DNA of 64,000 nt, from the NCBI RefSeq assembly GCF_018977255.1, contig NW_024704742.1, positions 133,178,001-133,242,000 on the forward strand, in the 5' to 3' direction. Positions 26,137 to 63,605 of the stretch are shown one piece after another. The notes beneath the pieces were generated by a model that was not told the origin of the DNA, searched no databases, and worked only from the letters and a program-made list of their open reading frames with translations. This stretch comes from Callorhinchus milii. Lineage: Eukaryota. The position numbers and the translations under genes were made by a program. Positions within the stretch are counted from its first letter, which is position 1. The number at the start of each line of letters is the position of its first letter.

Positions 26137-26324
26137 ACAACAACAAGATTTCATTTATAGAGCGCCTTTCACGTCGGGAGGACGTCCCAAGGCGCTGGAC
26201 AGTTGGGTCAGGACTCGAGCAGGGGGAAAATGGTCAGGGTGAGGGGAGGGAAGGGAGGGAGCGAGGAGGGGGTAGAGAGTCGAGAGGGGAGCTGAAGGCA
26301 TGGTCGAAGAGAAAGGTTTTGAGA
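26137..26324 (-). mobile_element. Young L2 3'-end insertion (absent from the paralogous site near 28430)
   Basis: Tail plus 3' UTR. Short ACAA duplication at the ends. Empty site is visible in the duplicate copy. Confidence 0.85.
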
Positions 26325-26655
26325 CAAATAAGTAAAGGTCGTGAGCCCAATAAATTCCATTTGTCAAAATCACTTCAACAAGTCAAACAGGTCAAAACAC
26401 TTGAGAAGAAGACACAGGAGGTTGGCAGCAATCCCATCTGATAGTTCGAGATAGGATTGAAATTTGAGCAGATTATTAGTTACTGAACTCTGAAATTGGA
26501 TTACTGGCTCTCATGCTGTGCCAAACATCAGAATATTTTTTGGGGAAAAAAAACTTTGCTTCTTGGATGTAAGTCAGCCTGGTAGCACACACTAAGTCAG
26601 AAAGTTTTGGGTTCAAAGCACACATTGGGACTTTGAACTCATAGTCTCGGCTGAC

Positions 26656-29028: not shown

Positions 29029-29322
<294 letters not shown>

Positions 29323-31264
29323 ATTGATGTGAACGTTTGCAGCAAGCTGGAAAATCTGGTGTAACCACAAAATGTAAACTGGTCACAAAGTAACCAGTGA
29401 AACTAAACAATGCTTATTTTATCGAAAGCAGTCATAAATTATGGACGGCTACACTGTCAGCATTTCTTTGGCTGGTTACCAGCAACATTGTCAGTAAGCA
29501 TTTGCGAGTTGTCAAGTGAGGTACATTGTATAACAACAACAACTTGCATTTACATAGCGCCTTTCATGCTTGGTAGCATCCCGTAGCACCTGGTATAATA
29601 ATAATAATCCTTGCATTTGATATACCTTCGAGACATCCCAAAGCGCTTCGCAGAATATACTGTAAAGTGGATTGACTGCCTATTTTGTGGGCGGAAGCTG
29701 TATTTTGGGGGTGGGTGGGTGTCAGCGAGGACACCGGGAGAAACTCCTTTCTCTTCTTGAATAGCGCCGTGGGATCCTTAATGTCCTGAACGAGTAGACG
29801 GGAAGCACGATGACGGGCACGTGTCAGCTACACGACTCACCAGAGAGTGAGAGAGAGAGAATTTGCGGGTTGTGGAGTGAAGCGCAGGATGTCCACAAAG
29901 CCCTCTTAAACCTCCCCCCCCCCGTTAAAAAGCAGCAATATGGAGGCAACGGAAGAGCTGAAACCATCTGTCAGAGATGCATTTCGTCTCATCATTCCAT
30001 CCATGTGACGGAAGATGTCACACCGAGCATTGCGACTGATCATTATCATGAAGACAATGTGGACTCCCATAGCAGAGTGGTAGAACACTCGCCTCGCAAG
30101 CGAACGAACCCGAGTTCGATACCGGGCAGGGAAAACCTCAGTCAAGTTTCCTTATCCCACAGGCCTCTGTTTACCCAGCAATAAGTCGGAACCTGGTTGT
30201 TAGTTGATTGGCGATTTCTTTCGGGAGTAATAATCCCTCTAATAATAATTGCTGTGTGCTGTTCGAATTCCACCTATAGAAAAATATAGGGTGAAACCTT
30301 GGGCAAGTTTCCTTACTCCACACTCCTGATAATAATCCATCAAAAAAATAATAAATTGATCATTTCAATCCACGGCTGTTTGTGGGACACTGCTGTGCGC
30401 AATTGGCTGCTGCATTTCGCCCACAAATATACAGTCGATTCACATTACGGTCTATTCTGTGAAGCGCTTTGAGACGTCGAGAAGACGTGAAAAGCGCTAT
30501 ATCAAATGCAAGGATTATTATTATACAGTCAATTCGCTTTACAGTATCATCTGTGAATGGCTTTGAGACGTCTCGAAGATGTGATCAAGTGCAAATGCAA
30601 GGATTACTATCATTATGTATCAATTGTTGACCAATTCAATGTGGGGGTGCGGCTGGGGGGGGGGGGGGGGGTGCGAGGGGACATGAGAGGGGGTGTGGGG
30701 AAGGGGGTAACCAGACTTTGTGGACACCCTGGACATTGTGTTGCCTCTCGGTAACTCAGAACCTTGTCTGAAAGGAGTCGCGTGTGTGTGCGTGCGTGTG
30801 TTTGCTGAAGGGGAATTAACGATGGACAGCACGACTGACCAATGGTAGTATTAAGTAGAGTGGTTGGTGGTGGAGAGGGGGGGGGGGGAGGGCGGTGCAT
30901 CCGGCTTCTCCCCCACTTTCCACCCCCCCCCACTCCCCATTCTTACACACACTGCTGTGCACAAGGAGCCTGGTGGAAGCAGCGTTGTGTGCGTACGAGA
31001 CAGACTGAGATACTGAAGGCTCAGACAAGCTCCCACCCCCCACCCCACCGAAGAGAACATGGACGTGGACATACCCGCTGCTGGCTAACCCCCATCCTCC
31101 CTCACCCCCCCCCTCCCTCCCTCCCTGTGGAAGGTAATCATCAGAGCCTTGTCTCGATCAAAAAAAAAGAGTTCGTCTCTTAACACGAGAAAAGTTTTGT
31201 TTGGAGGAGAAAAAAATCTCAGCTTTTCACTCTCTTTCTCTCTCTGGTTTAGCTATTAGCCACT

Positions 31265-34200: not shown

Positions 34201-34902
34201 TGTGGAGGGGGGGAGAGTGTGTGTGGGGGGGAGAGTGTGTGTGTGTGTGTGGGGGAGAGTGTGTGTGTGTGGGAGGGGGAGAGTGTGTGTGGAGGGTGGG
34301 GGTGGGCGCGTGTGTGGGGCGGTGTGGGGGGGGGAGAGTGTGGGGGGGAGAGTGTGTGTGTGGGGGGAGAGTGTGTGGGGGAGTGTGTGTGTGGGGGGGA
34401 GAGTGTGTGTGTGGTGTGGGGGGGGGAGTGTGTGTGTGTGTGGGGGGGAGGTGTGTGTGTGGGGGGGAGAGTGTGTGTGGGGGGGAGAGTGTGTGTGTGG
34501 GGGGAGAGTGTGTGTGGTGGGGGGTGAGGAGAGTGTGTGTGGTGGGGGGAGAGTGTGTGTGGGGGGAGAGTGTGTGGGTGAGGGGGAGAGTGTGTGTGGG
34601 TGGGGGGGGGAGAGTGTGGGGGTGGGGGGGGTAGAGAGTGTGGTGGTGGGGAGAGGTGTGTGTGTGGGGGGGGAGAATGTGTGTGTGGGGGGGTGAGAGT
34701 GTGTGTGGGGGGGGGAAGGAGTGTGTGGGGGGGAAGGAGAGTGTGGGGGGGGGGGAGAGTGTGGGGTGGGGAGAGTGTGGGGGTGGGGAGAGTGTGTGTG
34801 TGGGGGGAGTGTGTGTGTGGGGGGAGTGTGTGTGTGGGGGGGAGAGTGTGTGTGGAGGGGTGGGGGTGGGCGCGTGTGTGGGGGCGGTGTGTGTGGGGGG
34901 AG
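31265..34902. repeat. Complex G/T-rich minisatellite with two unit types: GTGTCTGTGTATGTGT(G)n and GAGAGTGTGTGT(G)n
   Basis: Read directly; + strand almost lacks C and has dense G-runs. Confidence 0.95.
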
Positions 34903-34949
34903 AGGAAATATCTGTGTTTATTCAAATCAAATTCAACATTGTACAGATG

Positions 34950-35900
34950 TGGGCTCTCCCCCTCTCCCCCACCCCCACCCTCGGCATTTCCAGAGCCAAA
35001 ATAATGGTCTCTAAACTGTTTAATTATTTGCTTTTCAATCCCATTGCTTATCTAACTCGGCCTTACTTAGTTCTCCTCATTATTCCGGTTCTGATTTATT
35101 CCACGGAATCGCTGGATATATTTCTTCCCTCTCCCCTGTCCTGCTCCGCACCTAGTTTTTTTTTTGCCGTGGGAGTTTTGCTTTTCGGTGGAGGCGGAGG
35201 GAGGGAAGGGGGAGGGAGGGAGGCAGATGTAAGATGTGCTTCAAACACTTAATTACAAGCAATCATTTTTTTATAGCGGCTCAGATTCCTTAGTTCACTC
35301 CGTTTCTACTGGGCTCTGCACCGTTTGGCATTCGCCAGACGAACAAGCGTTTAAGATAATTATACGTTGCCGTGAACAGTGCACTTCTTCTTTCCCAAGC
35401 TCAGAACACTGTACGGCTTGAGTTTAGTTCAACAATAATAGCTTTATATCAATTAAGCAGAGCTGAAAGTCTCTTCCTCCTCCCTCCCTCCCTCCCTCTC
35501 ACTAACCATATTTGCTTTCAAGTCGCTTTGCGGTAAAAAAGGATTTCACTCTCAGCTCGAGGTTCAGATTTTTGGTTTCGGACTCGTACAAAGTCACGAC
35601 GCTGTTTGTTATTATATCTTCAATTTCTACGCTGTTGAACTTCATTTTCGATGCGCGCAGAGGATTGCGTGTCAGGGTATAATTTGACAGCCAGGTGTGT
35701 TTTTTTTTAAACAATTAAAAAAAAACATAAAACAGAATCTTTTGTCTCTTTGCCCACACCGTGGCTTTGACCATTTTTGCAGGGGAGGTCTAATTTACTG
35801 TTGCATTGCTTTCCTGGTGTGTTTGTTGGGCTGCCTTTTAAGTTGTGGGTTCCGGAGTACTGTATTTTAATTTTTGGAGCATCGTGGGTGTGCGTAAGAC
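34950..35900 (+). promoter_or_regulatory. Candidate CpG-rich promoter / non-coding first exon of the cytokine receptor gene
   Basis: Repeat-free segment with visibly more CpG than its flanks, a GGAGGCGGAG GC-box-like motif near 35190 and a possible donor CCAG|gtgtgt at 35694/35695. The ATG exon has an acceptor, so an upstream UTR exon must exist. Its location here is inferred. Confidence 0.35.
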
Positions 35901-46830: not shown

Positions 46831-46912
46831 ATGATGGGTTCCATCTTGCACCTTTGCTCTTTAGCCATTTCCATCTTGAATCCAGTTATGGGGGAATTAT
46901 TGAGAGAGAAAG
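46831..46912 (+). CDS. il11ra-like: IL-11 receptor alpha-like cytokine receptor, first coding exon (signal peptide: MMGSILHLCSLAISILNPVMGELLREK-G)
   Basis: Strong polypyrimidine acceptor (ttcatttttctcttccag) directly before the ATG. Hydrophobic leader. Donor G|gtgagt in phase 1, matching the next exon. A first coding exon starting at the ATG is the layout I recall for IL11RA. Confidence 0.85.
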
Positions 46913-47567
46913 GTGAGTTTGTCTGGGTGGGACTGGAGGACTGGTGGGGTGGCTGTAGGGGGAAAAGCGCTTAGCACCAACATTCACCGTTGAAGTGGAC
47001 TTCACCCATCGCTACATTGGCATTGCACCATTGACAGCAATGTTGTGGAGTTAAGGGGAAGTGTGTAAATTGTGTTGTACCTTCCAGCGGCAGTTAATGA
47101 AAAGCTCTGACAAACGAGAGTAGAACTTTTGTGAAGCACATTTTCACAGACTGCCTTTGAAGCTAGTCTAGGTTCAATGTAAATTGTTCAATATTAACAG
47201 TAAATTGATCTGGTTAAATTATTTACAACAATATAACAACAAGTTACATTTATATAGCGCCCTTATGAAGGCTTAGGTACCAACTCAGAAATAGCATCTG
47301 TTCCAAGTTTCCTATTACATCAACTTGTGTTTTGCTGGGGGGGGGGGGGAGTGTTTATGCTTGCAGGTTTAAGTAATTTTTTTCCAAGATCGGGTATGCC
47401 TGACCCGTCCTTGCATTGCATCTACTGAGTTTCCATATATGGTTACAATGCCTCACTTTGCTAATTGGATTTCATGGTTCTGTGCCATGGGAAAGTTACT
47501 AAATAAACTGGGCTGGTTGGAGTACTTGTATCATGACTGTAACCACTTTTACTGTGTCCTATTCCAG

Positions 47568-47628
47568 GTATTCTGTATGGCCAAATAGGGACTGATGTCA
47601 CCTTGTTCTGCAGGGCTGATAACCACAG
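47568..47628 (+). CDS. il11ra-like: IL11RA-like exon: N-terminal part of Ig domain (G-ILYGQIGTDVTLFCRADNH-R)
   Basis: cctattccag| acceptor and AG|gtaatg donor, 61 nt, phase 1 to 2. Resembles IL11RA GVQYGQPGRSVKLCC and carries the first Ig Cys. Confidence 0.9.
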
Positions 47629-48174
47629 GTAATGTGACATGACGGAGACGAATGGTTTTGTGTGCTTGTGTAATATCTCAATCCTTTCCGGTGTGCATGC
47701 TTTGCCTTCTGGTCTCAGATATACGTGTGTTGGGGGGTGGAGAGAGAAAGATCTTCAACAAATTAGTGGCTATCCTCTCTTTTGGCAGAGTGGGGGAGAG
47801 GCAAGCAGACTTGATTTTGCATTGAGTTGTCCAAGTCTGGGATAAAAATTAAAAATAATAATAATTTGGACATTCAATCCACAACTGTTTGCTGTGCACG
47901 ATTGGCTGCCGCGTTTCACCCACAAAATATACAGCCAATTCACTTTACAGTATCAACAAAGCTCAAAATACTACAGATACTGGGATGATGGGTTAAAGAG
48001 GTGTTAGTGATGCAAAACAAAGGGAGGGATTGCAACAAAATGGGAATAGAGGCGTTAGTACTGCAAAACAAAGGGGATGAAAATTGCAACAAAACAGGGA
48101 GAGAAAAGGTGTGTCTGGGACCCAGTTGATGTGGTAATGGTCACAAAAGAGCAGGAGGGGGAAGGTGAGCTGTT

Positions 48175-48690
48175 ATAATAATAATCCTTGCATTTGATAT
48201 AGCACTTTTCACATCTTCTAGACGTCTGGAACTCTATCCCCCAGTGCCTTCGCCTTGCCTCCTCCCTGTCCTCCTTCAAGGTCGGTCTCAAGACCTTTCT
48301 CTTTGATCGTGCCTTCAGCTCCCCTCTCAACTCTCTACCCCCTCCTCGCTCCCTCCCTTCCCTCCCCCTGACCATTTCCCACCTGCTCGGGTCCTGACCC
48401 AACTGTCCAGCGCTTTAGGACGTCCTCCCAACATGAAAGGCGCTCTATAAATGGAATCTTGTTGTTGTTGTTGTCTCAAAGCGCTTCACAGAATAGACTG
48501 TAAAATAAATTAACGTATATTTGTGGGCGAAATGCAGCAGCCAATTGTGCACAGCAGTGTCCCACAAACATCGTGGCTTGAAATGACCAATTTTTTTGAG
48601 GGATTATTATCAGGCATGTAGAGTAAGGAAACTTGGCCAAGGTTTCACCCTGTTGGGAATTGAACCCAGGTTGTTTGCTTGCAAAGCAAG
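48175..48690 (-). mobile_element. SINE family A nested in the Penelope arm, itself carrying an L2 3' end (48228-48473, +)
   Basis: GTTAT duplicated at the SINE ends; GTCT duplicated at 48224-48227 and 48473-48476. Confidence 0.85.
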
Positions 48691-49344
48691 TTATGGTCTG
48701 AAATTGTTGAAACTTTGAGGCTAGTGGGCTGTAAGGTCCCTAGTAGATAAATCAGGTGCTGTTCCGAGCTTGCGCTTTGGCTCATTGGAACAGTGTAGGA
48801 GACCATGGATTTAGAGGTCAGAGTGGGAGGGAGAGTTAAGTGGCAAGTGGCAAGAAACCGGAAGCTCAAGGTTGTTCTTGCGGGCAGAATGGAGGTGTTC
48901 GGCAAATCGATCACCCAATCTGCAATTCATCTAAAGGAGACTACATCGTGAGCAACGAATGCAGTAACTACGTTGGTGGTAGTACATGTAAATCGCTGTC
49001 TCACTTGAAAACTGTATTTGGAGCCCTGGACAGTGGAGTGGGAGGAGGTGAAAGGGCAGGTATTGCATCTCCTGCGCTGCGTGGGAAGGTGCCGGAGAGA
49101 GGAGAGCAACTGTTGGTGGCGATGGAGGAATGAACCAGGGAATGACGGACGGAACGGTCCCTTCGGAATGCTGAGAGGGGAGGGGAAGGTACGTTTAGTG
49201 GTTGGATCATGCTGGAAGTGCCAGAAATGGTGGAGAATTATTGGTTGGATGTTAAGGCTGGTGGGGTGGAAGGTGAGGCCTAGGGGGACCCTATCATGGT
49301 TCTGGGAAGGGGTGAGGGCAGAGGTGCGGGAAATAAGGTGGACT

Positions 49345-49542
49345 CTCTCCTCCAAAAGCGTGGATGCCTTCAAGAAAGAGATTGACAGATTTTTGATAGG
49401 TTGGGGTATTAAGGGATATGGGGAGAAAGCGGGAAATTGGATTTGAAATTCTAGTAAAGATATAGATCAGCCATGATCTAATTAAATGGTGGAACATGCT
49501 CGACGGGCTGAATGGCTTACTCCTGTTCCTATGTTTCTGTGA
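49345..49542 (+). mobile_element. CR1-type LINE 3' end nested in the Penelope element
   Basis: AFKKEIDRFL...GIKGYGEKAG.W C-terminus, then gatcagccatgatc...gggctgaatggc..actcctgttcctatg tail. Confidence 0.8.
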
Positions 49543-50119
49543 CATAGTCAAGGGCCATGCCTACAACAGTGGATGGGAATCCTCGGTCGAGGAAAAAGGA
49601 AGACATTTCAGCTGCTCTGGTGTGAAAGGTAGTATCATCAGAGCAGATGTGGTGGAGGTGGAGGAACTGGGAAAAGAGAATGGACTCCATTCTGACCTCT
49701 CCACCCATGGTCTTCTACGATGTTCCAGTGAGCCACAGCACAAGCTCGAGGAACAGCACCTCATCTATCTGCTAGGGACCTTACAGCCCTCTGGCCTCAA
49801 TATTGATTTCAACAATTTCAGACCATAACAGCTCACCCTCCCCCCTCTTCTGTGACCATTACCACATCATCTGGATCCCAGACACACCTTTTCACTCTCT
49901 GGTCTGCCTATTTTGTTGCAATTTCCCCCTCACCCCCTTTGTTTTGCATTATTAACACCTCTATTGCCCTATTTTGTTGCAATCCCCCCTTTGTTTTACA
50001 TCATTAATGACTCTTTAACCCATCATCCCCTGTCCTCTACCCCATTTTCTCCTTTGTCTTCCTTGCTCTGTTTCCCCCCTCTCTGTTAGCCCTTAAAAGT
50101 CTCTCTCCCAACATGCCTC

Positions 50120-50151
50120 AGTTCTGACGAAGTGAACCCGAATCGTTGACT
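50120..50151 (+). ncRNA. Degenerate minimal type I hammerhead ribozyme in the Penelope terminal repeat
   Basis: AGTT-CTGACGA-agtgaaccc-GAAT(for GAAA)-CGTT-GACT. Core boxes and stem I are recognisable; GAAA and stem II are mutated. Confidence 0.55.
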
Positions 50152-51477
50152 CGCTTTCCTTTCTCCATTGACGCTGTTTGACTTGCTGAGTGTTCCCAGT
50201 GACTTCTGTTTTCGTTTCACTTTACAGTATAATGTGTGAAGCGCTTCGAAATGTCTCAACAATGTGATAAGGCACTATATCAACTGCATTTATTATTATA
50301 AACTAATGAACTATCCATCCTACTTATCAGTGGGTGAGCTTTCAGCCAATCTGCCAGCCCTTCACCTTCACTGTTATAGCTTGTTAAGACCCACCTTTTC
50401 AACCATGTTTTTGGTCATCTTTACCCCACCCTCCTCAGTTTCCCCCACACCCAACTTGGGCTCCCAGTCAATTGCATGAAGGACTTTGAGACATTCTCTG
50501 TGAAAGGCGCCAACATAAATATGCATTGTTATTGTGAATGGAGGTCATGAAAATCTGCCTCGTGGATAACATTGTTAACTGGAGGTTTCTCAGCATGTTT
50601 CTCTTAGTGCAACAGAACTAAATGAAGCTTTAAAAGCACAGTTTGGTGGGGGGTTGCATATTGGTCTTGTTATAAACAGGATAGGGCTCTTGAGTGCCTT
50701 GAGAGAGAGACAAAAATGTTTGATTTGCAAAGAATCGTCCTTTGTTTAGGAGTGGTAAAAGGTTTCTGAAATGTTTCTGAAAGTTTGTCTTGGTCCCAGT
50801 CCAGCAGATGTGGTCTCTTGAATTTGTTCAAAGATGGGTTGAGATACAGAATCAAAGTTGAGTGGAGGAAAGGAGCACGTGCAGGGAAGAAAGCAAAGAA
50901 TTCTCTTTCAAAGAATTCTCTACCCCACCCCACCTCCATGAGGCTGTTCAAAAAAGAGTGGGGGTTACTCTTTTTACTCTTGGCTCTTACCAAAGTAGAG
51001 AGACCTTTGTGACTGGAAAGCGAGGAAATTGTGTAATAACACAAGTACGGATAGTGACTGAGACAATTGGAACGTTTGTAGAAATATTAATCACATTCAG
51101 GAAATTAATCTAAAATAAATTAACAGCTTCTACCATTTAGGGCTTTGGCTTCCAGGCTTAATGAGAGCTGAGTAGCAAGAACTACTACTTTCAGTATTTG
51201 TCTAAAGTAAAAAGAAAGCATTTTGATAGTTTCTCTGTAAATGAGCAGATGTGAGATACCATGGAAGGCTATCAGTGCTTCTTAGAATTTAGTTCTCAGA
51301 AAAGTTGCTTTTCTGAGGTGATGGTATAGCACCTTGCATATCAGGAGGATATCCCGAAATGCTTCACAGGATTTACTGTAAAGGGAGTGACTGTTTTGTG
51401 GGTGAACTTTGCAGCCAATTTTACACACAGCAATGTCCCAAAAATAGCCATAGAGTGAGTGACTCATTTTATTTGGG

Positions 51478-51972
51478 GGATTCAAGATCGAATTCAACAT
51501 CCTCATCCTCGCCTACAAGGCCATTCACAGCCTTGCTCTCTCCTACCTCTCCAACCTACTATCCCCCTACCTACCTGCCCGTACCCTCCATTCCTCTGGC
51601 TCCGGTCTGCTCCACATCCTCCGCGCCAACTGCGCCATCGGTGGCCGGGCCTTCAGCCTCTCAGCCCCCAGGCTCTGGAACTCTATCCCCCAGTGGCTTC
51701 GCCTTGCTTCCTCCCTTTCCTCCTTCAAGGCCGGTCTCAAGACCTTTCTCTTTGACCGTGCCTTCAGCTCCCCTCTCAACTCTCTACCCCCTCCTCGCCC
51801 CTCCCTTCCCTCCCCTCACCCTGACCATTTCCCCCCTCCTCGCTCCCTCCCTTCCCTCCTCTCACCCTGACCATTTCCCCCCTGCTCGGGTCCTGACCCA
51901 ACTGTCCAGCGCTTTGGGACATCCTCCCGACGTGAAAGGCGCTCTATAAATGGAATCTTGTTGTTGTTGTGT
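51478..51972 (+). mobile_element. Young L2 3' fragment inserted in a minus-strand SacSINE1-like element
   Basis: Matches 16915-17410 and has two 3' units. Confidence 0.85.
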
Positions 51973-52749
51973 TGATTGTTGGCCACAACACTGGGAAGAA
52001 ACTCCCTTCTCTCTGCGATTAGTGCCAAAGGGTCTTTGATTCCACCTGAACAGGCAGACGAGTCCTCGGTTTAACATCTCAACTGTCCACTCCCTCCGTT
52101 CAGCGGGCTCTGGTCTGCTCCATGTCACCCGCCCTACGATCGGTGGCCGGCCTTTCAGCCTCTCTGCCCCCACACTCTGGAACTCCCACAGTCCCTTTGC
52201 CTCACTTCTTCCCTTGCTTCCTTCAAAGCCAGTCTCAAGACCATTCTCTTCGATCATGCCTTTGGTCTCCCACTCTCTGCCTTCCCTCACACGTACACCA
52301 CCCCTCCGCCATACTCGGGCCCCGACACCTGACTGTTCAGTGCTTTGGGATGTTGTCCCGACATGAAAGGTGCTCTATAAATGTAATGTTGTTGTTGGGG
52401 CTTGAACTCACAAATTTCTGACTCTGAGAAGAGAGTGCTACCAACTGAGCTAAGCTGACACACATGGAGAATCTTTCTCTCCTTCCCCCTTCCCGACCCT
52501 TCTCCAAGATGCAACTGACTTTTTCTACATTAGGTTGAAGAGATTTTTGCAGCTGACGAACAAGTCAGGAAATGTCTCAAGAGGCAGGAGAATATTTGTT
52601 GGTTGATTGCAAGCAAGCTTTCTGGCTTCATGTGAATGCTTTGATACTCAGTGAAGTTTGAAAGTGATTGTTTTTCTGTATTAGTTGTTGAGGTGTCAGC
52701 CTGGCTCAGTTGATGGGGGCTCTCTTTGACCTCTGGGTCAACAGGTTCA

Positions 52750-53118
52750 ATAATAAAATTAATCCTTGCATTTGATACAGCGCCTTATCACATTGTTGAG
52801 ATATCTCAAAGCGCTTCACAGAATATTCTATGAAACAAATTGACAGTATTTTGTGGGTGAAATGTGGCAGCCAATTGTGCACAGCAGTGTGCCACAAACA
52901 ATCGTGGATTGAGTGACCAAATAATTTATTTATTTGAAGGGATTGTTACTCCCGGAAAGTGATCCAACGATCGACTAACAACCGGATCCTGCTTATTGCC
53001 AGGTAAACAGAGGCATGTGGAGTAAGGAAACTTTCTTAAGGGTTCACCCTGCCCGGGATTCAAACCCGGGTCCTCTCACTTGCAAGGCAAGTGCTCTTAC
53101 CCAATAATTTACAGGACA
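52750..53118 (-). mobile_element. SINE family A (long form) inserted in the head of a SacSINE1-like element (52694-52749 / 53120-53430)
   Basis: Complete CORE-like segment; the host SINE continues on both sides. Confidence 0.8.
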
Positions 53119-53563
53119 CCACAGGCCTCTCGTCAGCACTTAGAACTCATACAGTGTAGGCTGACCCTCCAGTCCAGTGCTGCTGGGGGTGTGCATTGTA
53201 TTGTTGGAGGTGCCGTCCTTCAGATGAAACCCAGGTTCTGTCTGTGCCGGTTCAGGTGGTCGTTAAAGATCCCTTGCCACTGTTTGAAAAGAGGAAGGGA
53301 GTTTCTCCTGGTTTCCTGGCCAACAATCCCCCAAATAAAATTGGTTATTTACTTCATGGCTGGTTGTAGGACATTGACATGTGTAAATTGACTGTCGCAT
53401 TCGCAAAATGGACAGTCACTACACTTGACAGCATTTCCTGTTGACCTGCAAACCTTAGAGGAGAATTTCCCTCTCCCTTCTCTCCAACTCTTAAAAGAGT
53501 GAATTATTATGAGATTTCACTGCATGCTCAAAAGAACATTCATTATGCACGTTGTACCAACAG

Positions 53564-53730
53564 GTTTATTCAGTGGAGGGTTAATGGGACCCGTGTGGCC
53601 TTATCTAACAACACAAAGGTGCAGAATGGAAACCTCAAGTTTTTGTTGACAGAGCTGGCTTCAGGAGGAAATTACAGTTGCCATGACGAGACCGGGGAAC
53701 TTTTGCACTGGACTCGACTGGAACTTGGAC
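53564..53730 (+). CDS. il11ra-like: IL11RA-like exon: remainder of Ig domain (FIQWRVNG...GNYSCHDETGELLHWTRLELG)
   Basis: caacag| acceptor and C|gtaagt donor, 167 nt, phase 2 to 1. Has the Ig core Trp, the G-x-Y-x-C motif and the LxLG end. Lies within ORF 53499..53747. Confidence 0.92.
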
Positions 53731-54099
53731 GTAAGTCAAGTCTTTAATCCTGCAGAGGCGCCTGCTGTCTCCAATAACACTGGTGTGAGAGCAGTGCTAG
53801 AGTTGTGTTAGAATTGGTTCTAGAGATGTTTTGCTGCCTTGAGCTGTTCTTTAATACAGATAACGTTGTTTTGTTTTAACGGGCTGTATCTCTGAGGGAA
53901 ATATCAAAAGGTCAGCGAAGATTCCCTGTAGCCAATGCCGCTGTATTCCTCTTGCTCTTTCAGTTGAACATCGTGTTGCATTTTGCAGATGGGTTTCTGC
54001 CCTGTAGTTACTGGAAGGATTTAGAATGAAGTAGTTAGAGTGCAGCCCTGTTATAATATAATGTGCTTTTGTTTTTTGGTTAGTCTAATACATGAGAAA

Positions 54100-54545
54100 A
54101 CTCAGTGCCATGCTTAAGAGTATCCAAACCAAACAACAGTCCATGCATCCCACCTACACATGGAACTTCTTGAGATATTTATTGGAATGGAATGCACTCC
54201 CTCTCCCTGGAGGGACACATCTTGCTCACCTAATTCCGGAAAGTATTAGGCGCAGGTTGGCAAGAATCAAGGCTTGGGGACCCCAGAGTGTGTGTTGGGG
54301 GCACTACTAACCAGCTAAAACCGCGTAGTTTGCCATTGAGAGCACTGTTAGGCAAGCTTTGCCATTGCTTGTCCAGCAAGGGCAACCCTAGGGCTTTGGC
54401 TTGTAGGGTAAATGGGAGCTGAGTGTGAAGAGTCCTTGCTCCTAGTGACTGGGCTTCCCTTTCAAGTCCTGCCGAAAAGCCAGGCAGAGTGTATCATCAT
54501 AAACAGTGCCCTGGAGTGCGGACCCGCCTGGCTCAGGAACCGAGA
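54100..54545 (+). repeat. Unclassified old interspersed repeat (other copies about 14870-15160 on -, 62720-63025 on +, fragments about 51135-51190 and 55050-55200)
   Basis: Shared blocks: atccaaaccaaaca, tggaatggaatgcactccctctccctggaggg, ggcttggggacccca.agtgtg, gggctttggctt..agg..aatg.gagctgagt. Confidence 0.7.
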
Positions 54546-54714
54546 CCGCATTTTTAACCCCCAATCTATGAGACTTTACTCCTGGGATTGAACTTGCATT
54601 CTTGAGTTTCACCACAATCTATTGCTTTGGATTTGTAGAATATGGTTGTATTTGAGCTATTTTCCCCATATTATTGCCAACAATCTGAGCTGTAATTATT
54701 TATTTCGTGAACAG

Positions 54715-54829
54715 ATGCTCCGAGTAAACCACGGGTGCACTGCAGGGCATTTAATGTGTTTAGAATCTCCTGCGAATGGGAAAATCACCAAGACACAACC
54801 TTCCCTACTCGTTACATTGCAAGCTACAG
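54715..54829 (+). CDS. il11ra-like: IL11RA-like exon: first half of FN3 D2 (HAPSKPRVHCRAFNVFRISCEWENHQDTTFPTRYIASY-R)
   Basis: gaacag| acceptor and AG|gtatag donor, 115 nt, phase 1 to 2. Has the C-x9-C-x-W class I cytokine receptor motif. PTRYIASYR resembles IL11RA PTRYLTSYR. Confidence 0.92.
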
Positions 54830-57800
54830 GTATAGTATGGTGTCTTCAAAACACACTCACAGTGTGAATGTGCAGTGTTTGAATCCTAAGTGCTGTATAC
54901 ACTTATGGGCATGAAATGTATATGTGTACACACGTGCGTATATTTGTTTTACATGTATTGCAAAATCTCAGGCCATAGTTTGTGTGGAATATGATGTCTG
55001 CTGCACTTGACAGTGCATTAAGAACACTATCTGTCGATCACCTTACCCATTAAGGGCTTTGGCTTGCAGGATTAGCAGTTGCTGAGCGGGAAGAATCCTA
55101 ACTGTCAGTCTGTTTCTCCCATGTCCTGTTGAGCCAGATCAGTTGGTTTGTTGTCAGCAGTGCTCTGGAGTACCTCTCCTCTCAGGAGCCAGAATCCCAA
55201 GACCGCAATAGAGGGGTTGACTTGATTCTGATATGCTGTTGCCAAGCATGTCATCTTGAAGCTAGCTCAGCTACAAGGTGACCCTGCTTGCCTTCTCCCA
55301 CCGGAGGACAGCACTAGTTGGTCATAATTGCTCTACACGATGTTCCTATAGTATTAAGATATAGTAACCGTTTCCCTGTACACCACGGTCAAGCGCTCTG
55401 GGTCGCTACCCTACATGAGGGGCGCTATATAAATGCAAGTTGTTGTTGTTGAAGTGCTTTGCGATGTCCTCCATGATTATATTATTAACCTATATGCAAG
55501 TAAGCTCATCTGTGGCTGGTCTTTACGGTTCTGATGTGCGTCAAGCAATGCTGCTCCACAGCTGTGTGTTTTGGAGAGTTTAAACCTTTGCATCTGACTA
55601 ATGCACTATATCTGGCAATTCACATGACTGTAACACAATCCAGAGCCTCATTTGCCATCACAGACTTCCACAGTTGAACTAGTTTGTTGTACAGTGTATA
55701 AGAGTTTTTTTGGTTCAATGCAGCCTAACAGTCTTTGACCAAGTTTGGAAAAAAGAGAAAGATTCTTTGCAGACTGATGTCTCAGGTACTAAGGATGGAT
55801 ATAGGTTAATAATATAATCATGGAGGACATCGCAAAGCACTTTAACAACAACAACTTGCCTTTATATAGTGCTCCTCATGCAGGATAGCGTCCCAGAGCG
55901 CTTGATAGTGGTGGAGCACAGCGCTGAGCCGGGAGGAGGTGACCGTAGGCATAGTCGAAGAGGAAGGTCTTCAGGCGCAACTTGAAAGTGGGGAAGAAGG
56001 GTGCAAGGCGGAAGGATAGAGGAAGTGTATTTCAGAGTTTCGGGGTGTAGTGGCTTGTAAGACCGGTCACTGATTGAGGAATGGAGGGCACGAGGAACAG
56101 GCAGGAGGCCGAATCCAATCATATGCTGGATATGCTGCTTCATAGCTGCTGTAAAGTGTGGTGACTGTGTATTTTGTAGGCAATTGGAGTAACAAACCAA
56201 ATTGACTCAAGTGATTCAAGATGCTATCCCGTATGAAGGGTGCTATATAGTTGTTGTTCTAAATGGAAAGAAGCAGGTGGTGGTCTTCAGGGAAACTGGG
56301 TTGAAATGGGGGTGATATCGTATGGGGAAGGACACCATGGACTAAGAGCTTAAAGTCTAGGTTGACACTCCAGTGAAGTGCTGGGAGGTTGGCATAGGAG
56401 GCTGCATTGCTGGAGGTACCGTCCTTCGAATGAGATGCTGAAACTGAGAGCCCCCTATCGACCTATAATTTGTTGTGGTTCAGTTTGTTTTGTACTGTAG
56501 CCTCTTGGGCAGGTAGGTGTTCTATCCTGAGAATGGCTGAAATGGTGAACTTCATTCTAGTATAACACTGGCCAACTCCTTCCCTCTGGTCTCATGTTGT
56601 CCAGGGTTTCCGCTGTACAGCTCGCCGACCTGTAAGATCTCCAGTCACAATTTTCTCTCCTGTTTTCCTCACAAATGCTTTTTTTTCGACCCAAACAACG
56701 GGCTTTTCACCTGTTCTGCGAGCCTGTCACCTTTCATTTCCACTTGCCCCGCTTCCCCCCTCCCCACCATACACACACACACACCTGATCAAATTCAACA
56801 TCCTAAACCTCGCATTCAAATCCCTCCAGCGTCTCTTCCCCCATCCTCTCTGTGCAATCTCTTGCAACTACTGACCCGGCCTCTCTCTGGATGCTTCATA
56901 CCCCGGCCCAATCCGCCCCACCATCAGTAATCGACCTCTCAGCTCTTCTGCCCCAGCTCTTGGGAAATGAAGCCAGAGTCCCTTCATCTCCTTCCCCATT
57001 TTTAGAGCCCGCCTTATGACTTGCCTGTTTAATTCAGCTTTCATTCATCTTTCCCTGCCACCCCATCCCCCACAACTTAGATGCTAGCCATGTAAAATGC
57101 TTTAAGATGTCCCCTCACCATGGGTATAATTGTATTTTTTGTAATTTGCGTGATTTGGGCTTTGACCCTTGGGAGGAGGAAACTCATCCAAAATGTGACT
57201 CAGAATCACAACAGGTGTATATTTCATCAAATAAGTGAAACCGAGTGAATCACTGGCCGATTATTTTATTTGTACGAACCAGACATTATTCCCTCTCATA
57301 ATCATATCAACCTTTGAATGGAGTTAATATCTACTGACTCATTTCCTTTGTGATTACTCCCCAGGATTATCTGTGTCTAATTAAGATTGGAGGTTTCTAT
57401 GCCTTATTTATGTGCTGCTGGAAGCAATTGTAACACTCAATTGGGAATGCAAAACCAGTATTTTAAGATTTCCCTAAATCGTATTGGCAATTAGGTGCTC
57501 ATCTCCACTATCCGGTACTGGACTAGCTCTGGTTTACAATGGTTCATTAAGAACATTAAAAATAGTCTGTTCAAACATCTTGGGTCAAAGATGTTTAATT
57601 CACCGTTTATTAATTAAGACTAAATCCATTTGTACCACCAATACTGCAGTGTTGTGAATACTATAGCGAGCCCAATATCCACCCTATTGTGGATGTGAAA
57701 ACAGTGCATGTATCTTGTGAGTGTGGGTTTCCCCCCACTCTCTTTTTTTTTCTCTCACTCACTCTCTCTCTCATTGATCAGATCTCTCGCTTGGATGATC

Positions 57801-60532
57801 CAGTAAAATTACAAACTTGGTTGCATCGCACACAATAATAATCGTTGCATTCGATATAGCACCTTTCATGTCAGGTGGATGTCTCATAAAGCACTTCAAA
57901 GGATTTGCTTTGAATTCTGGTTTGAATTCTAGTGACTGTAATTAGTATGTAGTAAGATGACCTGCATGTTAGCTTGGTTCAGTGTGTAGGTTTAAAGCAA
58001 AGTTTCCAAAAGGGTGAAGCTTTGCAAATCTGAAAACTTGGGATAACAGAGAAGTGATCCTAAATAATCGAATTCCTTTGATTTTGAATTCCTAGTTAAG
58101 AAAAGTTCACTGCAACAATTTGCATTTGAACAGCATCCTTTACCCGGATAAGAGTCTTGCAGTGCTTAACAGTGGCAGAACCTAACACTGAGCCGGGGAG
58201 AGAAGGGATGTGACTGTAGGCACGGTCAAACAAGAAGCTCTTCAGATATAATCTGAAGATTTGCAAGGAGGAAGCATTGAGGCAGAGAGTTTCAGAGTTT
58301 CAGGGCCATAGTGTCTCAAAGCACAGCCGCTGATGGTGGAGGGGATGAGGGATGTACAGAAAGGCCAGAGCCAGCTGAGCCAAGGGGTGGATAGTGGAGT
58401 AGGGGAGAGGTACCGGAGCAAGTTGGAGAGAAGGAGGTGCGAGGGCGTGATTTTTTTGTAATGCATAACTATCTTTGTTTCTGCTTTCCTGTTGAGAGTG
58501 TTTGGGTTGTTTCCTGTTAATTCTGGATATTTACTTTGGCTTTTCTTTTTTTCCACACTTTTTTTCTTTTGTTTCGTGTATTGCTGCTCTGCTTCGATAA
58601 AGTTTCTGACTGCCTGTGGTCTATGCACCCCAATCAGTGAGGTAAAGCCTTCAAGCTGGTGGTGTGTGACAACACAATACAGTTCCACGTACTGATTTAT
58701 TATGAAATCTGTATTGGTGCTCATTCTATAAACTGGGATGACTTCCATAGCCTCAGTATTAAGGGCATGACTCACCATGTAGACTGCATTCGATGACTGT
58801 ATAAAAATTGCATTTTGTGGTTTGGTATGTTTTATTTAGAACGTAAACTTAGAATAACCTTGACGTGATGACTGGATCTCCGTTACACAAAAATAACATT
58901 TACCATTAACCAGCCCCTTCCTTTTAGTAAATAACCTGCTTTGACTTGCTTTGCTCTGGAATACTAACCATCGCACAGTTTCTTCCCCTCCCTCCACTTG
59001 TCATATAAAAGCCTGTTTGACTCTTCAGGTAAGATCCAGTGGTACTAGTTGAAAAGCGAAGGGCTTTTCTCTCCTACTATCCTGGCCAATAATCCTCCCC
59101 TTCACTCCCAGATGAAATTGGTCATTCACTTCATCACTTCATGGCTGTTTGTGGGACATTGCTCTGTGCAAATTTGCTGCTGTCTTTGCATACAAATAGT
59201 CACTGCACTTTACAATACAGTACAATCCTGCAAAATGCTTTGAGACGTTTAAACAACGTGACAAGGCATTATACCCAAGGCAAGGATTATTATTATCAAT
59301 ATTATAAATGTTTGGCAAGTTTCCTTACTGCACACACCTCTATTAACCTAGAGGTAAGTAGGAACCCGGTTGTTAGTCAATTGACGGATCACTTTTCCAG
59401 GGATAAAATCCCTCAAAAAAAACAATAATTTGGTCACTCAATCCACGACTGTTTGTGTGAAGCTGCTGTGCGCAATTGGCCGCTGCGTTTCGCCCACAAA
59501 TATACAGCCAATTCACTTTACAGTATATTCTATGAAGCGCTTTGACGTGAAAACCGCTAAATAAAAGTATTATTATAATTTGCAAAGTGCTCCTTAGCTC
59601 ACTAGTGAAACAGGTACTATTTAGTCCAATCTTCTGGTCTCTTTCTTCTTTTAATCACACCACTTGCCACTCAACAAATTCAACATCACCTCCTCACTTT
59701 TATATTGTATCCATCTGGATACAAAGTCTAAAAACCCATTGGTCTTGGATCTGAATCCCTGGATATCTTTGATCTTAAGTTCCTTGTTGTTGGTTGTGGT
59801 GGGGATGGTGGTTGTGGTTAGAGATGATGAATTTGAAGCTCTTATAATTACACAATACAATTTACATTCATAAAATACTTTTCTCATCAGGAAGACATCT
59901 TAAAGTAATGGTTAGAGCACTTGCCTCACAAGAAAGAGGACATGGGTTTGATTGCCGGTTGGGAGTGGCAAGTTTTAGGCAAGTTTCCTTACTTCACAGG
60001 CCACTGTTTACCTAGCAATAAGTAGGAACCCGGTTGTTAGTCGATTAGTGGAATGCCTTCTGGGAATAATAATCCCTTTTTTTAAAAAAATAAAAAATTT
60101 GATGACTTTCAATCCATGACTGCTGTGTGCAATTGGCTGCCGGGTTTTGCCCGCAAAATATACAGTCAATTCACTTTACAGTATTCTGAAATGCTTTGAA
60201 ACGTCTCGACAACGAGATAAGGTACTACGTCAAATTCAAGGATTATTATCACTAAATGCTTTACACAGCTGGCTCGGCACTTGAGCCAGTGTGGGAAGCA
60301 GGTAGGTAGGGGAAATATGAGTGAACATGCAGTCAAAAAGGTATGATTTGAAGCGAGCTTTACATGTCGGGAGGGAGTGGGCTCTGGATGTCGGAAGGAT
60401 TCTGGATGTAATTCCAGAGAGTGGGCAGAGAACAGCTGAAAGCGTGCTGTGCAGATTTTTGATTGCAACCTCTGGGAATAATTTATTTTAAAGTTTCTTT
60501 TTGTTTTTGTTTTTCTCCTTTCTTGGTTTCAG

Positions 60533-60702
60533 GGATCCACAAAACCAAATCCAGAACTGTTCTGCAGACCCGCTGTATAAAAACATTTGCCACATTGACA
60601 ACCCTCAGATTTTTACTTCCCTGCCTTACGTTGTAAACGTGACAGCAGTAAATACTCTCGGGTCGAGGGCTACGCTGTCAGAATTTCTGGCAATGGACAT
60701 TG
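60533..60702 (+). CDS. il11ra-like: IL11RA-like exon: second half of FN3 D2 (DPQNQIQNCSADPLYKNICHIDNPQIFTSLPYVVNVTAVNTLGSRATLSEFLAMDI)
   Basis: Long polypyrimidine tract then ttcag|, donor G|gtaagt, 170 nt, phase 2 to 1. Contains the second Cys pair and the Y-x-x-NVTAVNxLG motif. Confidence 0.93.
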
Positions 60703-60865
60703 GTAAGTAGCTTTGAGCGTGTATAGGAAACATTGATCTATTTATAAGACCAGCTTGGCAGAAACGCCAATTGCTTGTTCAACTTCAAATGCTTTTCACC
60801 TTGTGACAGTCTGGCACAGTTGGTAGCTCTCTCTCCTCTGAGTCAGAAGGTTGTGGGTTCAGGGA

Positions 60866-61245
60866 TTAACTCAGTGGTTAGAACATTCACCTTGCAAGTG
60901 AGAGGACATGGATTTGATTCCTGGGCAGGGCAAAATGTTGGGCAAGTTCCTTACTGCACATGCCTCTGTTTACCTAACAGTAAATAGGAGCTGGTTGTCA
61001 GTTGATTGGCAGATCGCTTTTCGGGGTGTAATAATTCCTCAAAAATAAATTTTAAAAATAAATGATTTGGTCACTCAATCCATGACTGTTTGTGGGACTC
61101 CGCTTTGAGCAATTGGCTGCCGTGTTTCACCCACAAAATATACAGTTAATTCACTTTACAGTATATTCTGTGAAGCGCTTTGAGACATCTTGAAGACGTA
61201 ATATGTCTCTATATCAAATGCAAGGTTTATTATTTATTATTATTG
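60866..61245 (+). mobile_element. SINE family A (long form) inside a SacSINE1-like element (60805-60865 / 61245-61445)
   Basis: gggcaagttccttactgcacatgcctctgtttacctaacagtaaatagg CORE-like segment. Confidence 0.8.
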
Positions 61246-63447
61246 TTAGAGGTGTCATCCTTCAGATAAGAAGTTAAACTCAGGTCCCGTCTGCCTGTTC
61301 AGGTGGATGTTAAAGATCCCATGGCATTATTCTAAAAGAGAAGGGAGTTCCTTCTGGTGTCCTGGCCAACAATCCCCTGGATAAGATGGGACATTGCTCT
61401 GCGCAAATTGGCTACTGTGTTGATCTGCAAAATACACAACTGCAGTATTTTTCTTCTTTTCTATCCCTTCCTGCACTGACCTGTCCTGATTACATTCAGA
61501 ATGAAAGCAAAAGCTTGTAATCATGCAACGCCTTTCACATAAAACGACAACAACTTGCACTTGCACTCTCTATGCAGGGTAGCGTCTCAGAGTGCTTAGC
61601 AATGGTGAAGTCTGACTCTGAGCCAGGGGTGAGGGGGGTGGGAGGTGACTGTAAACACGGTCGAAAACAAAGATTTTTCGGGTGGGACTTGAAAAAACAG
61701 AGAGAGGGGGCAAGGTGGAGGGATTCAGGGAGCGTGTTCCAGAGTTTTGGGGTGTAGTGGTTGTGATGGAGCGGAGGGTGCAAGGGACAAGCAGGGCTGG
61801 TGCCAGTCAAGCAGAGGTGGTGGATTGGGGAGTGAGGAGGTTGGAGAGGTAGGAAGGTGCCAGGGAGTTAAGAGATTTGAAAACAAACAACTACTTGCAT
61901 TTATTTAGTGCCCTTCCCACAGCACAGCTGCTTGGAGTGCACATGGAACATTTTGAAGAGCTTGACAAGGTGCAGGGTAACAAGCGGGCAAATAAGAGAC
62001 GTTGACCAAATGCTCAGTTGAATAGTGTATTTCTGAAGGTGAGGAGAGAATGTTGCGAGGCAGGGTTCCAGAGGACAGAGGCATGGAGCTAAAGGTTTGG
62101 ATGCCAATGAGTTTGAGGAATAAGCAATTGACCAAGTGATTCCCTCCTCATCTGTTAGCAGATTGATCAGCTCTAGAAGAAGGGGATCTTAGAGATGTTT
62201 TTCACTGGAGGAATTTCAGCCAGTTTGTCCTTGTGTTTTGTGTTTATTTCAAATATGCCCTTGACTCACATATGTTATTACTCAGAATCCCAGACCTCGT
62301 TTTTTTTTGGGTCTTGGATAATAATCTATAACATATGTTTTGATACTTTTCCAATTTCTGTGCTCTGTTCGATCACCAGATTTTTTTGGGCCAGCCGGGT
62401 GTATGTATGACACATGTGGGAACCCATCACCATATTTAAGCATTGCCTATTACTCTCCAGAATTAATAATAATAATTCTTGCATTTAATATAATGCCTTA
62501 TCATGTCTTTGAAATGTCTCAAAGCGCTTCACAGAATATGCTGTAAAGTGAATTAACTATATTTTGTGGGCAAAAGTTGGCAGCCAATTGCACACAGCAG
62601 TGTCCCATAAACCGTCGTGGATTGAAGTGACCAAATAATTATTTTTTTAAAGGAATTATTACCCCCCGGAAAAGCGATCCATCAATTGACTAACAACTGG
62701 GTTCCTATTTAGTAAGCAGATGCGTCTCTCCAGGGAGGGAGTGTTCATTCCATTCAAAAAATACATCTCTGGAACTTCTATACATCAGTGGACATCATCC
62801 AAACCAAACAGAATTCTGTGCATCCCATACAAATTCCAGAGATTTGTATTGGCATGGAACACATACTCTTTCCCTGGAGGGGTGCATCCTGCTTACTTTA
62901 CTCCAGAGAATAATCGGTGCAAATTGGCAAGAGCCAAGACTTGGGGACCCCAAAGTGTGCATTGGGGTACTACTGGAATCTAACCAGTTAACCCGCACAA
63001 CTGGCCATCAATAGCACTGTCTGGATCCCGTCCCTTTATCAGCCCCTTTGCTCAGCTTGTTCGGGCCTTCTGTACTTCCTCAATCCTTCCTCTTCTCTCC
63101 TATGGCTCAAACCTCTGGAACTCCCTGCCTCAATCGCTCTGTCTTGTCCATTCTTTGCTCGTCTCAGATCGCACCTGAAGACTTTCCTCTTTGATCGTGC
63201 TTACGGCCACCTCCCCTTTCTCCAGGCTCTGTGACAAACTATGTCATTGTTAAGCGTTCCAAGATGCTACCCACGTGAAGGGTGTTATATAACTGGAAGT
63301 TGTTGTGTTGAATATGGTATTGTTAGCATGCGGTCTGTTTTCGGCAGGGAGTGGGGTTGGTTGGGTTGAGGTCTTGTAGGTCTGTCTCGACAGACAAGAT
63401 GCAAAGAAATATTTCACTCTTCCCCGTTTTCTTGTTTTTAATTTCAG

Positions 63448-63605
63448 TTCAGCCCAACACACCTAAGAATGTGAGAGTCAAGCCTGTCTTTGGATCTCCC
63501 AGAAGAATCAAAGTGCGCTGGGATTATCCGTCTTTGTGGGACACGCGTTTTGAATTAAAATTTGTCTTGGAATATAGACCGACAATTATCTCGTTCTGGT
63601 CACGG
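63448..63605 (+). CDS. il11ra-like: IL11RA-like exon: first half of FN3 D3 (VQPNTPKNVRVKPVFGSPRRIKVRWDYPSLWDTRFELKFVLEYRPTIISFWSR); gene continues beyond window
   Basis: ttttaatttcag| acceptor and CGG|gtgagt donor, 158 nt, phase 1 to 0. PRR..V.W.YP..W...F.LKF.L.YRP pattern as in IL11RA/CNTFR. The WSxWS exon is expected downstream of 64000. Confidence 0.92.

What the first reader, a model, noticed from the sequence alone, without database searches (positions are those of the whole stretch)
46831..63605. Cytokine receptor alpha chain with mixed IL11RA/CNTFR/EBI3 features: possibly a paralogue lost in mammals
Seen: six exons splice into 251 open codons (SP-Ig-FN3-FN3). Recalled comparisons: the split Ig exons, ILYGQ, QWRVNG, PTRYIASYR and GSPRR..WDYP are IL11RA-like. 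DPLYKNICHI and N.LG..AT...F...IV.P..P.NV...PV are CNTFR-like. PRVHCRA and PYVVNVTAV are EBI3-like. The short WDTRF loop is IL6R-like. Established: IL11RA/CNTFR (9p13, near SHB), EBI3 (19p13, near SHD) and IL6R (1q21, near SHE) lie in one paralogon, whose fourth segment (15q, SHF) has no such gene in human. Inference: this may be a divergent chondrichthyan IL11RA, or a distinct retained ohnologue with an unknown IL-6/IL-12-family ligand.
Basis: partly seen in the sequence, partly recalled or inferred. Interest (0 to 1): 0.75.

Follow-up and report, generated by a model that had tools for sequence, protein, structure and literature searches.

The report
Elephant shark IL-11 receptor alpha gene
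These six exons are the spliced front part of a gene already catalogued as the elephant shark's interleukin-11 receptor alpha chain, most likely the ordinary counterpart of the human gene rather than a sister gene lost in mammals.

Summary
Six exons give 251 open codons, and all five joints appear in spliced public contigs from three studies. The product equals residues 1-251 of a 388-aa RefSeq protein named IL-11 receptor alpha of Callorhinchus milii, with a transmembrane helix and a short tail. Shark and ray relatives are 49-58% identical. The mixed look is real: human IL11RA and CNTFR score almost alike (166 v 158 bits), and the first FN3 domain fits EBI3 best. Still, bony-vertebrate IL11RA are the best hits. 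Three one-residue deletions and the tail are shared with them. A 68-row tree joins the shark clade to bony IL11RA (99/95 and 100/97). The species has a separate EBI3. Against: a 45-row tree was unresolved, one test that leaves the shark clade outside was not rejected (p 0.22), flanking genes lie beyond the window, and no shark CNTFR was retrieved. Verdict: very probably the chondrichthyan IL11RA orthologue that kept ancestral residues; already annotated, and a cartilaginous-fish IL-11Ra orthologue was published in 2018. The scan holds no earlier look-alike.

The parts
46831..46912 (+). First coding exon: ATG directly behind a splice acceptor; predicted signal peptide; residues 1-28
   Evidence: joint to exon 2 in 4 of 4 runs laid
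47568..47628 (+). 61-nt exon, first half of the Ig domain (first Ig cysteine, C42); residues 28-48
   Evidence: joints on both sides in 4 of 4 runs
53564..53730 (+). 167-nt exon, second half of the Ig domain; residues 48-104
54715..54829 (+). 115-nt exon, first half of FN3 domain D2 (C113, C123); residues 104-142
   Evidence: (best solved-structure hit IL11RA)
60533..60702 (+). 170-nt exon, second half of D2 (C151, C161); residues 142-199; the part that looks CNTFR/EBI3-like
63448..63605 (+). 158-nt exon, first half of FN3 domain D3; residues 199-251. Residues 252-388 (WSDWS motif, stalk, transmembrane helix, tail) lie beyond the window
   Evidence: tblastn finds no later exon in the window

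Best explanation
The six exons encode the signal peptide, Ig domain and most of two FN3 domains of a single-pass receptor that is most likely the elephant shark orthologue of IL11RA and would act as the non-signalling alpha chain for IL-11. Shown: the exon structure, the splicing, identity to the RefSeq protein, the WSDWS motif, a hydrophobic helix at about 345-366 with a tail of about 20 residues, and conservation across sharks and rays. Inferred from the human complex: IL-11 binds the D2-D3 elbow, the pair recruits gp130, and gp130 signals through JAK/STAT3; the short tail would not signal itself. The mixed appearance likely arises because the chondrichthyan D2 kept states ancestral to IL11RA, CNTFR and EBI3 that bony-vertebrate IL11RA later changed.
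For: (1) P0001 is named IL-11 receptor alpha by NCBI and UniRef. (2) Against 1.84 billion representatives, the best non-self hits are frog IL11RA 229 bits, an unnamed eel protein 219, cobra IL11RA 198 and galliform IL11RA 192; the best CNTFR scores 166 and the species' own EBI3 151. (3) Family profiles built without the query clade: IL11RA is best for 10 of 10 chondrichthyan proteins over the whole length, the ectodomain, D3 and the TM plus tail, and for 9 of 10 in the Ig domain. (4) Three one-residue deletions are shared with both tetrapod and ray-finned IL11RA. C113-C123 is 10 in 18 of 18 chondrichthyan and 17 of 18 scored IL11RA rows, against 11 in 113 of 114 CNTFR, 14 of 15 EBI3 and 24 of 24 IL6R. 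C87-G103 is 16 in 18 of 18 and 18 of 20, against 17 in 112 of 113 CNTFR and 9 of 13 EBI3. Y241-D263 is 22 in 18 of 18 and 26 of 27, against 23 in 113 of 113 CNTFR and 8 of 12 EBI3. (5) 68-row tree: chondrichthyan clade plus bony IL11RA at 100/97 (LG+G4) and 99/95 (mixture model); AU tests reject grouping with CNTFR (p 0.025), with EBI3 (p 0.012), and bony IL11RA+CNTFR without it (p 0.002). (6) The IL-11 R169 pocket of the human receptor (F165, F230, L277, D275; PMC10662374) maps to I168, F233, L280 and E278, with D at the last place in 7 of 8 chondrichthyan rows; CNTFR has a gap at the L277 column in 10 of 10. (7) PMC6238376 reports cartilaginous-fish orthologues of IL-11Ra, CNTFRa, IL-6Ra and IL-11.
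Against: The 45-row ectodomain tree gave only 78/30 for the same grouping (780 of 1000 bootstrap trees) and 85/61 with TM and tail added. On that set AU tests rejected neither CNTFR (p 0.44), EBI3 (p 0.22) nor IL11RA+CNTFR without the shark clade (p 0.30). On the 68-row set, a tree with the shark clade outside IL11RA+CNTFR+EBI3 was not rejected (p 0.22), and those AU tests used the simpler model. D2 scores best on the EBI3 profile in 10 of 10 (that profile includes the elephant shark EBI3). The C113-C123 deletion also occurs in 4 of 10 jawless-fish rows. The pocket residues do not separate IL11RA from EBI3. Eight species carry only '-like' names, one isoform 'CNTFR-like'. No flanking gene lies in the window, and ligand binding is untested.
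Confidence: 0.9

Rival explanations
1. It is a separate paralogue (a whole-genome-duplication ohnologue or an old tandem copy) kept in cartilaginous fishes and lost in all bony vertebrates, serving an unknown IL-6/IL-12-family ligand; the true IL11RA is elsewhere or lost.
For: Placement outside IL11RA+CNTFR+EBI3 is not rejected (p 0.22). The smaller trees are unresolved. D2 is EBI3/CNTFR-like. A TM plus short tail could be ancestral, not IL11RA-specific (inference). Local synteny and a genome-wide paralogue count could not be run.
Against: The best trees join it to bony IL11RA at 99/95 and 100/97, and three deletions are shared. No second chondrichthyan IL11RA-like protein was seen among the 150 best representatives: 32 rows fell in the bony IL11RA clade of the 139-row tree, all in tetrapod or teleost subclades apart from a named sturgeon and bichir. 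A shark copy hidden inside a 50% cluster is not excluded. The gene lies on a 139-Mb scaffold that, by unchecked scan notes, also bears MELK, SUSD1, WDR36 and ERBIN/SREK1. From recall these are human 9p13/9q/5q and chicken Z genes, which fits the IL11RA block and not 15q.
Confidence: 0.07
2. It is the chondrichthyan CNTFR or EBI3, misnamed.
For: Exons 5 and 6 hit human CNTFR first; D2 fits EBI3 best; no named shark CNTFR appeared in the best 120 of 217 hits.
Against: The species has a separate EBI3 on a 10.7-Mb scaffold, 308 aa, without a TM helix. Bony CNTFRs are 53-80% identical to the frog protein and end in a short hydrophobic stretch with no cytoplasmic tail, unlike this protein. The CNTFR-specific deletion before WSxWS (112 of 112) is absent in 18 of 18. 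Both groupings are rejected on the 68-row set. PMC6238376 reports a distinct cartilaginous-fish CNTFR.
Confidence: 0.02

Closest known systems
Callorhinchus milii interleukin-11 receptor subunit alpha (XP_042191770.1, UniRef V9KET7; P0001)
   Same: Identical over all 251 residues encoded in the window.
   Different: Nothing; the record adds residues 252-388 from exons beyond the window.
IL11RA of bony vertebrates (human, PDB 8QY4, 6O4P, 8DPS; frog, chicken, teleost)
   Same: SP-Ig-FN3-FN3-stalk-TM-short tail; three shared one-residue deletions; similar tail ending in a K(A/S)LP-type motif; sister clade in the 68-row trees.
   Different: 33-41% identity; keeps the longer, ancestral C161-N177 segment and F instead of W at the human W166 column; has its own two-residue deletion in the D3 BC loop; lacks the insert after D2's third strand seen in birds and mammals, as do frog and teleosts.
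CNTFR alpha (human, PDB 8D74, 1UC6)
   Same: Same three-domain ectodomain; near-equal score (158 v 166 bits); shared D2 segment length.
   Different: CNTFR has no cytoplasmic tail (GPI anchor, recalled), has the extra residues at three indel sites, and has a deletion before WSxWS that this protein lacks.
EBI3 / IL-27 beta of non-mammalian vertebrates, which keeps an Ig domain (C. milii XP_007899334)
   Same: Ig-FN3-FN3 layout; D2 profile best match.
   Different: About 300-320 aa, no TM; a separate gene in the same species on another scaffold.

Membership tests
Group 3 class I cytokine receptor alpha chains | Ig domain plus cytokine-binding module with four conserved cysteines and WSxWS | tested here: met
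   C113, C123, C151, C161 invariant in 13 of 13 rows; WSDWS at 285-289; Pfam FN3_IL27B_N above cut-off
IL11RA | Single TM helix and short cytoplasmic tail (not GPI, not secreted) | tested here: met
   P0001 residues about 345-366 hydrophobic, then about 20 residues; TM+tail scores best on the IL11RA profile in 10 of 10, weakly (8-14 bits)
IL11RA | Groups with bony-vertebrate IL11RA to the exclusion of CNTFR, EBI3 and IL6R | tested here: met
   99/95 and 100/97 on 68 rows; weak on 45 rows (78/30, 85/61); one outside placement not rejected
IL11RA | IL11RA-type indels | tested here: met
   Three shared one-residue deletions; a fourth site keeps the ancestral length
IL11RA | Ig domain split over a 61-nt exon and a 115-nt first D2 exon | tested here: inconclusive
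   The window has 61 and 115 nt. The human lengths are recalled; only the c.479 donor was seen in print; search found no paper on the gene structure
IL11RA | Local synteny with CNTFR, GALT, DCTN3, ARID3C | not testable with these tools
   No genome held; no other coding gene recognised in window 1-46.8 kb (31.3-35 kb seen only as ORFs); chromosome-level hints rest on unchecked scan notes
IL11RA | Only such gene in the genome | tested here: inconclusive
   None seen among 150 best representatives or, but neither search is genome-wide
IL11RA | Binds IL-11 and signals through gp130 | not testable with these tools
   Pocket residues are conserved or conservatively changed but are not specific against EBI3
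CNTFR | No cytoplasmic tail; deletion before WSxWS; high conservation | tested here: not met
EBI3 | Secreted, no TM; groups with EBI3 | tested here: not met

The most novel reading that the evidence does not exclude
The gene is a hidden paralogue of IL11RA, a fifth alpha-chain lineage kept by all chimaeras, sharks and rays and lost in bony vertebrates. It would be misnamed IL11RA in every database and pair with an unrecognised IL-6-family cytokine through one of the three shark gp130 copies. A milder version: it is IL11RA, but its ancestral D2 lets it bind CNTF/CLC- or p28-type ligands as well.
Probability: 0.07. Interest if true: 0.55.

Novelty: already known. Interest (0 to 1): 0.12.

Why it matters
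As IL11RA it adds little: the gene is annotated, and a cartilaginous-fish orthologue was reported in 2018. It has modest value as a slowly changed reference for what the common ancestor of IL11RA, CNTFR and EBI3 looked like, and it shows that comparison with human motifs alone can make an orthologue look like a mosaic. A hidden paralogue would instead point to a lost cytokine pathway of early jawed vertebrates.

Tried and rejected
A missed micro-exon between exons 4 and 5, as amniote IL11RA has: one weak 12-nt candidate in the scan, but 3 of 4 laid runs join the two exons directly; rejected. Flanking genes in the window: 54 candidate exon frames outside self-repeats, none recognised beyond this gene (judged by eye, not scanned against Pfam). 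Shark CNTFR by a search with frog CNTFR: none named among the best 120 of 217 hits, the other 97 not shown. Neighbours by adjacent accession numbers in papers: 0 papers. Chromosome-level synteny in PMC8302630 and PMC10620051: the passages read do not say which chicken chromosomes match this scaffold. Supplements of PMC6238376 were not available and its figures are not held, so I could not see which sequences it called IL-11Ra. AlphaFold model of low confidence (mean pLDDT 52): not used, no fold search run. No listed run is on record as RNA; the spliced GT-AG joints are the evidence of transcription. Scan notes near the window or naming IL11RA/CNTFR: none. ESM Atlas ranks IL11RA clusters first by features (0.98) and by structure, with IL6R close behind at 0.97; a lead only.
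Full report
Observation. All introns are GT-AG, the phases match, and the joined frame has 251 codons without a stop. I laid 4 of the 14 listed runs, from three studies; the tool only guesses that they are RNA. Introns 1 and 2 are joined in 4 of 4 runs and introns 3 and 5 in 3 of 4. Intron 4 is joined in 3 of 4 by contiguous contig coordinates, and one 1203-letter contig carries exons 3 to 6 in order. The gene is real and spliced as read.

Identity. Exon 6 alone, searched against longer proteins, returned 1 hit of 1 candidate: a 388-aa protein named interleukin-11 receptor subunit alpha of Callorhinchus milii, on a 139-Mb contig. The 251-aa model equals its residues 1-251. The rest holds WSDWS, a stalk, a hydrophobic helix and a tail of about 20 residues. 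A search with the full protein gave 13 hits among 8000 scored candidates: itself, 10 named sharks and rays and 2 unnamed, at 49-58% identity. Among the cluster members, ten species carry the plain name IL11RA and eight only '-like' names, one isoform 'CNTFR-like'. The four D2 cysteines are invariant in 13 of 13 aligned rows.

The mixed look. Against solved structures, human IL11RA scores 166 bits, CNTFR 158, IL6R 96, EBI3 77-80 and CRLF1 64. Exon 4 prefers IL11RA, exon 5 CNTFR then EBI3, exon 6 CNTFR narrowly over IL11RA. It weakens once non-human proteins are used. In the search of 1.84 billion representatives (461 hits at E up to 0.001, best 150 listed) the leading non-self hits are frog IL11RA (229 bits), an eel hypothetical protein (219), cobra IL11RA (198) and galliform IL11RA (192). 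The best CNTFR scores 166 and the elephant shark's own EBI3 151 (20 of the 149 were named by look-up, the other family labels are mine from trees and profiles). Profiles built without the query clade put IL11RA first for 10 of 10 chondrichthyan proteins over the whole length, the ectodomain, D3 and TM plus tail, and for 9 of 10 in the Ig domain. EBI3 comes first for 10 of 10 in D2.

Shared and ancestral characters (rows that lacked an anchor were not scored). Three one-residue deletions unite the chondrichthyan proteins (18 of 18 each) with tetrapod and ray-finned IL11RA. C87-G103 is 16 in 18 of 20 scored IL11RA rows (9 of 29 not scored), 17 in 112 of 113 CNTFR, 9 of 13 EBI3 and 8 of 10 jawless-fish rows. 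C113-C123 is 10 in 17 of 18 (11 not scored), 11 in 113 of 114 CNTFR, 14 of 15 EBI3 and 24 of 24 IL6R; 4 of 10 jawless rows also have 10. Y241-D263 is 22 in 26 of 27, 23 in 113 of 113 CNTFR and 8 of 12 EBI3; IL6R is variable. The D2 segment C161-N177 has 16 residues, as in CNTFR (112 of 112), EBI3 (13 of 16) and jawless fishes (6 of 9), whereas bony IL11RA has 14 or 15. That CNTFR/EBI3-like stretch is therefore best read as ancestral. The short WDTRF loop is a chondrichthyan peculiarity (12, against 13 in IL6R and mostly 14 elsewhere). The CNTFR-like DPLYKNICHI is not kept in sharks and rays. Frog and teleost IL11RA lack the bird and mammal insert after D2's third strand, as this gene does.

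Trees. A fast tree of 139 of 162 rows (those of 230-700 aa) joined the 13 chondrichthyan rows to 32 bony IL11RA rows at 98. A careful mixture-model tree of 45 ectodomains (3 of 48 fragmentary rows left out) gave the same grouping at only 78/30, and 85/61 with TM and tail. On that set AU tests did not reject grouping with CNTFR (p 0.44), with EBI3 (0.22), or IL11RA+CNTFR without the sharks (0.30). I then built a 68-row set with eight jawless-fish rows, sturgeon and bichir fragments, and low-confidence cells masked. It gave 100/97 under LG+G4 and 99/95 under the mixture model. AU tests under LG+G4 rejected CNTFR (0.025), EBI3 (0.012) and IL11RA+CNTFR without the sharks (0.002). They did not reject the shark clade standing outside IL11RA+CNTFR+EBI3 (0.22). 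The second set changed both sampling and alignment and was built after the first proved unresolved. No shark CNTFR or named shark IL6R was in any tree, because none was among the best 120 of 217 hits of a frog CNTFR search.

Synteny. No genome is held. I read window 1-31.3 kb and 35-46.9 kb and scanned for exons; about half is self-repeat, and I recognised no other coding gene. PMC12162339 (passages) states that CNTFR and IL11RA are adjacent in teleosts and birds and separated by GALT, SIGMAR1, ARID3C, DCTN3 and RPP25L in mammals. Unchecked notes of this scan place ERBIN/SREK1 13 Mb, WDR36 29 Mb, SUSD1 48 Mb and MELK 129 Mb before the window on the same piece. From recall these are human 5q, 9q and 9p13 genes on chicken Z, where chicken IL11RA lies. 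This fits the IL11RA block rather than 15q, but it is a lead and not a test.

Mechanism. By analogy with the human complex, the protein would bind IL-11 at the D2-D3 elbow and then recruit gp130, which carries the signal. PMC10662374 (passages) names F165, F230, L277 and D275 as the pocket for IL-11 R169, and E164 as a further contact. These align to I168, F233, L280, E278 and Q167. The D275 column is D in 7 of 8 chondrichthyan rows, and CNTFR has a gap at L277 in 10 of 10, but EBI3 looks similar at these columns. PMC6238376 (passages; figures and supplements not seen) reports cartilaginous-fish orthologues of IL-11Ra (BPP 1.00, UB 92), CNTFRa, IL-6Ra and IL-11, and three gp130 copies. I could not see whether its IL-11Ra sequences are this gene. 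Ligand binding is inferred, not shown.

Literature. Nine searches were run; none listed a paper devoted to a shark IL11RA or to a fifth alpha chain, and most subscription papers are outside the library. Also read as passages: PMC1963337 (single zebrafish IL-11Ra, CNTFR, IL-6Ra and IL-27Rb), PMC3865590 (human donor site at c.479), and PMC8302630, PMC10620051 and PMC12284397 (nothing usable here). Human exon lengths, the GPI anchor of CNTFR and the chicken Z assignments are recalled.

Verdict. A real, expressed, already annotated gene; IL11RA orthologue about 0.9, hidden paralogue about 0.07, misnamed CNTFR or EBI3 about 0.02. Interest is low.

Noticed in passing
window about 35000-35694, + strand: Likely non-coding first exon and promoter: a unique stretch with raised CpG ratio (0.7-0.8) ending in the best-scoring donor site between 29.5 and 46.8 kb (after 35694). 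The ATG sits right behind an acceptor, and one contig has about 400 letters upstream of it without running over the end of the laid stretch.
   Followed up: partly
window 60644: All four laid runs read G where the window has A, at full depth; third codon position, Thr stays Thr. An allele, an assembly error or editing; not resolved.
   Followed up: partly
P0055, P0056, P0057, P0071 (EBI3 of elephant shark, lungfish, a worm lizard, milkfish): Non-mammalian EBI3 keeps an N-terminal Ig domain (about 300-320 aa) that the mammal-like row P0175 lacks, which explains why it resembles a soluble IL11RA.
   Followed up: partly
P0039, P0040, P0105 (two named lampreys, one unnamed), P0070: Proteins with repeated receptor modules: lamprey proteins with two cytokine-binding modules, and an 815-aa protein with four matched EBI3-like stretches. 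Real or gene-model fusions, not examined.
   Followed up: no
P0092: A GALT-like enzyme sequence fused to a mammal-type IL11RA in one predicted protein, in line with the two genes being neighbours.
   Followed up: no
window 17879-20679, - strand: Two long open frames (465 and 530 aa) of an L2/CR1-type LINE, endonuclease and reverse transcriptase by recalled motifs; many shorter copies lie through the window.
   Followed up: no
window about 31200-35000 and 29020-29325: A 3.8-kb G/T-rich simple repeat that gives spurious long ORFs, and a 300-bp TATC microsatellite.
   Followed up: no
window about 25900-26540 and 28250-28640: An imperfect local duplication of a few hundred bases, one copy interrupted by a LINE tail (read by eye).
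   Followed up: no
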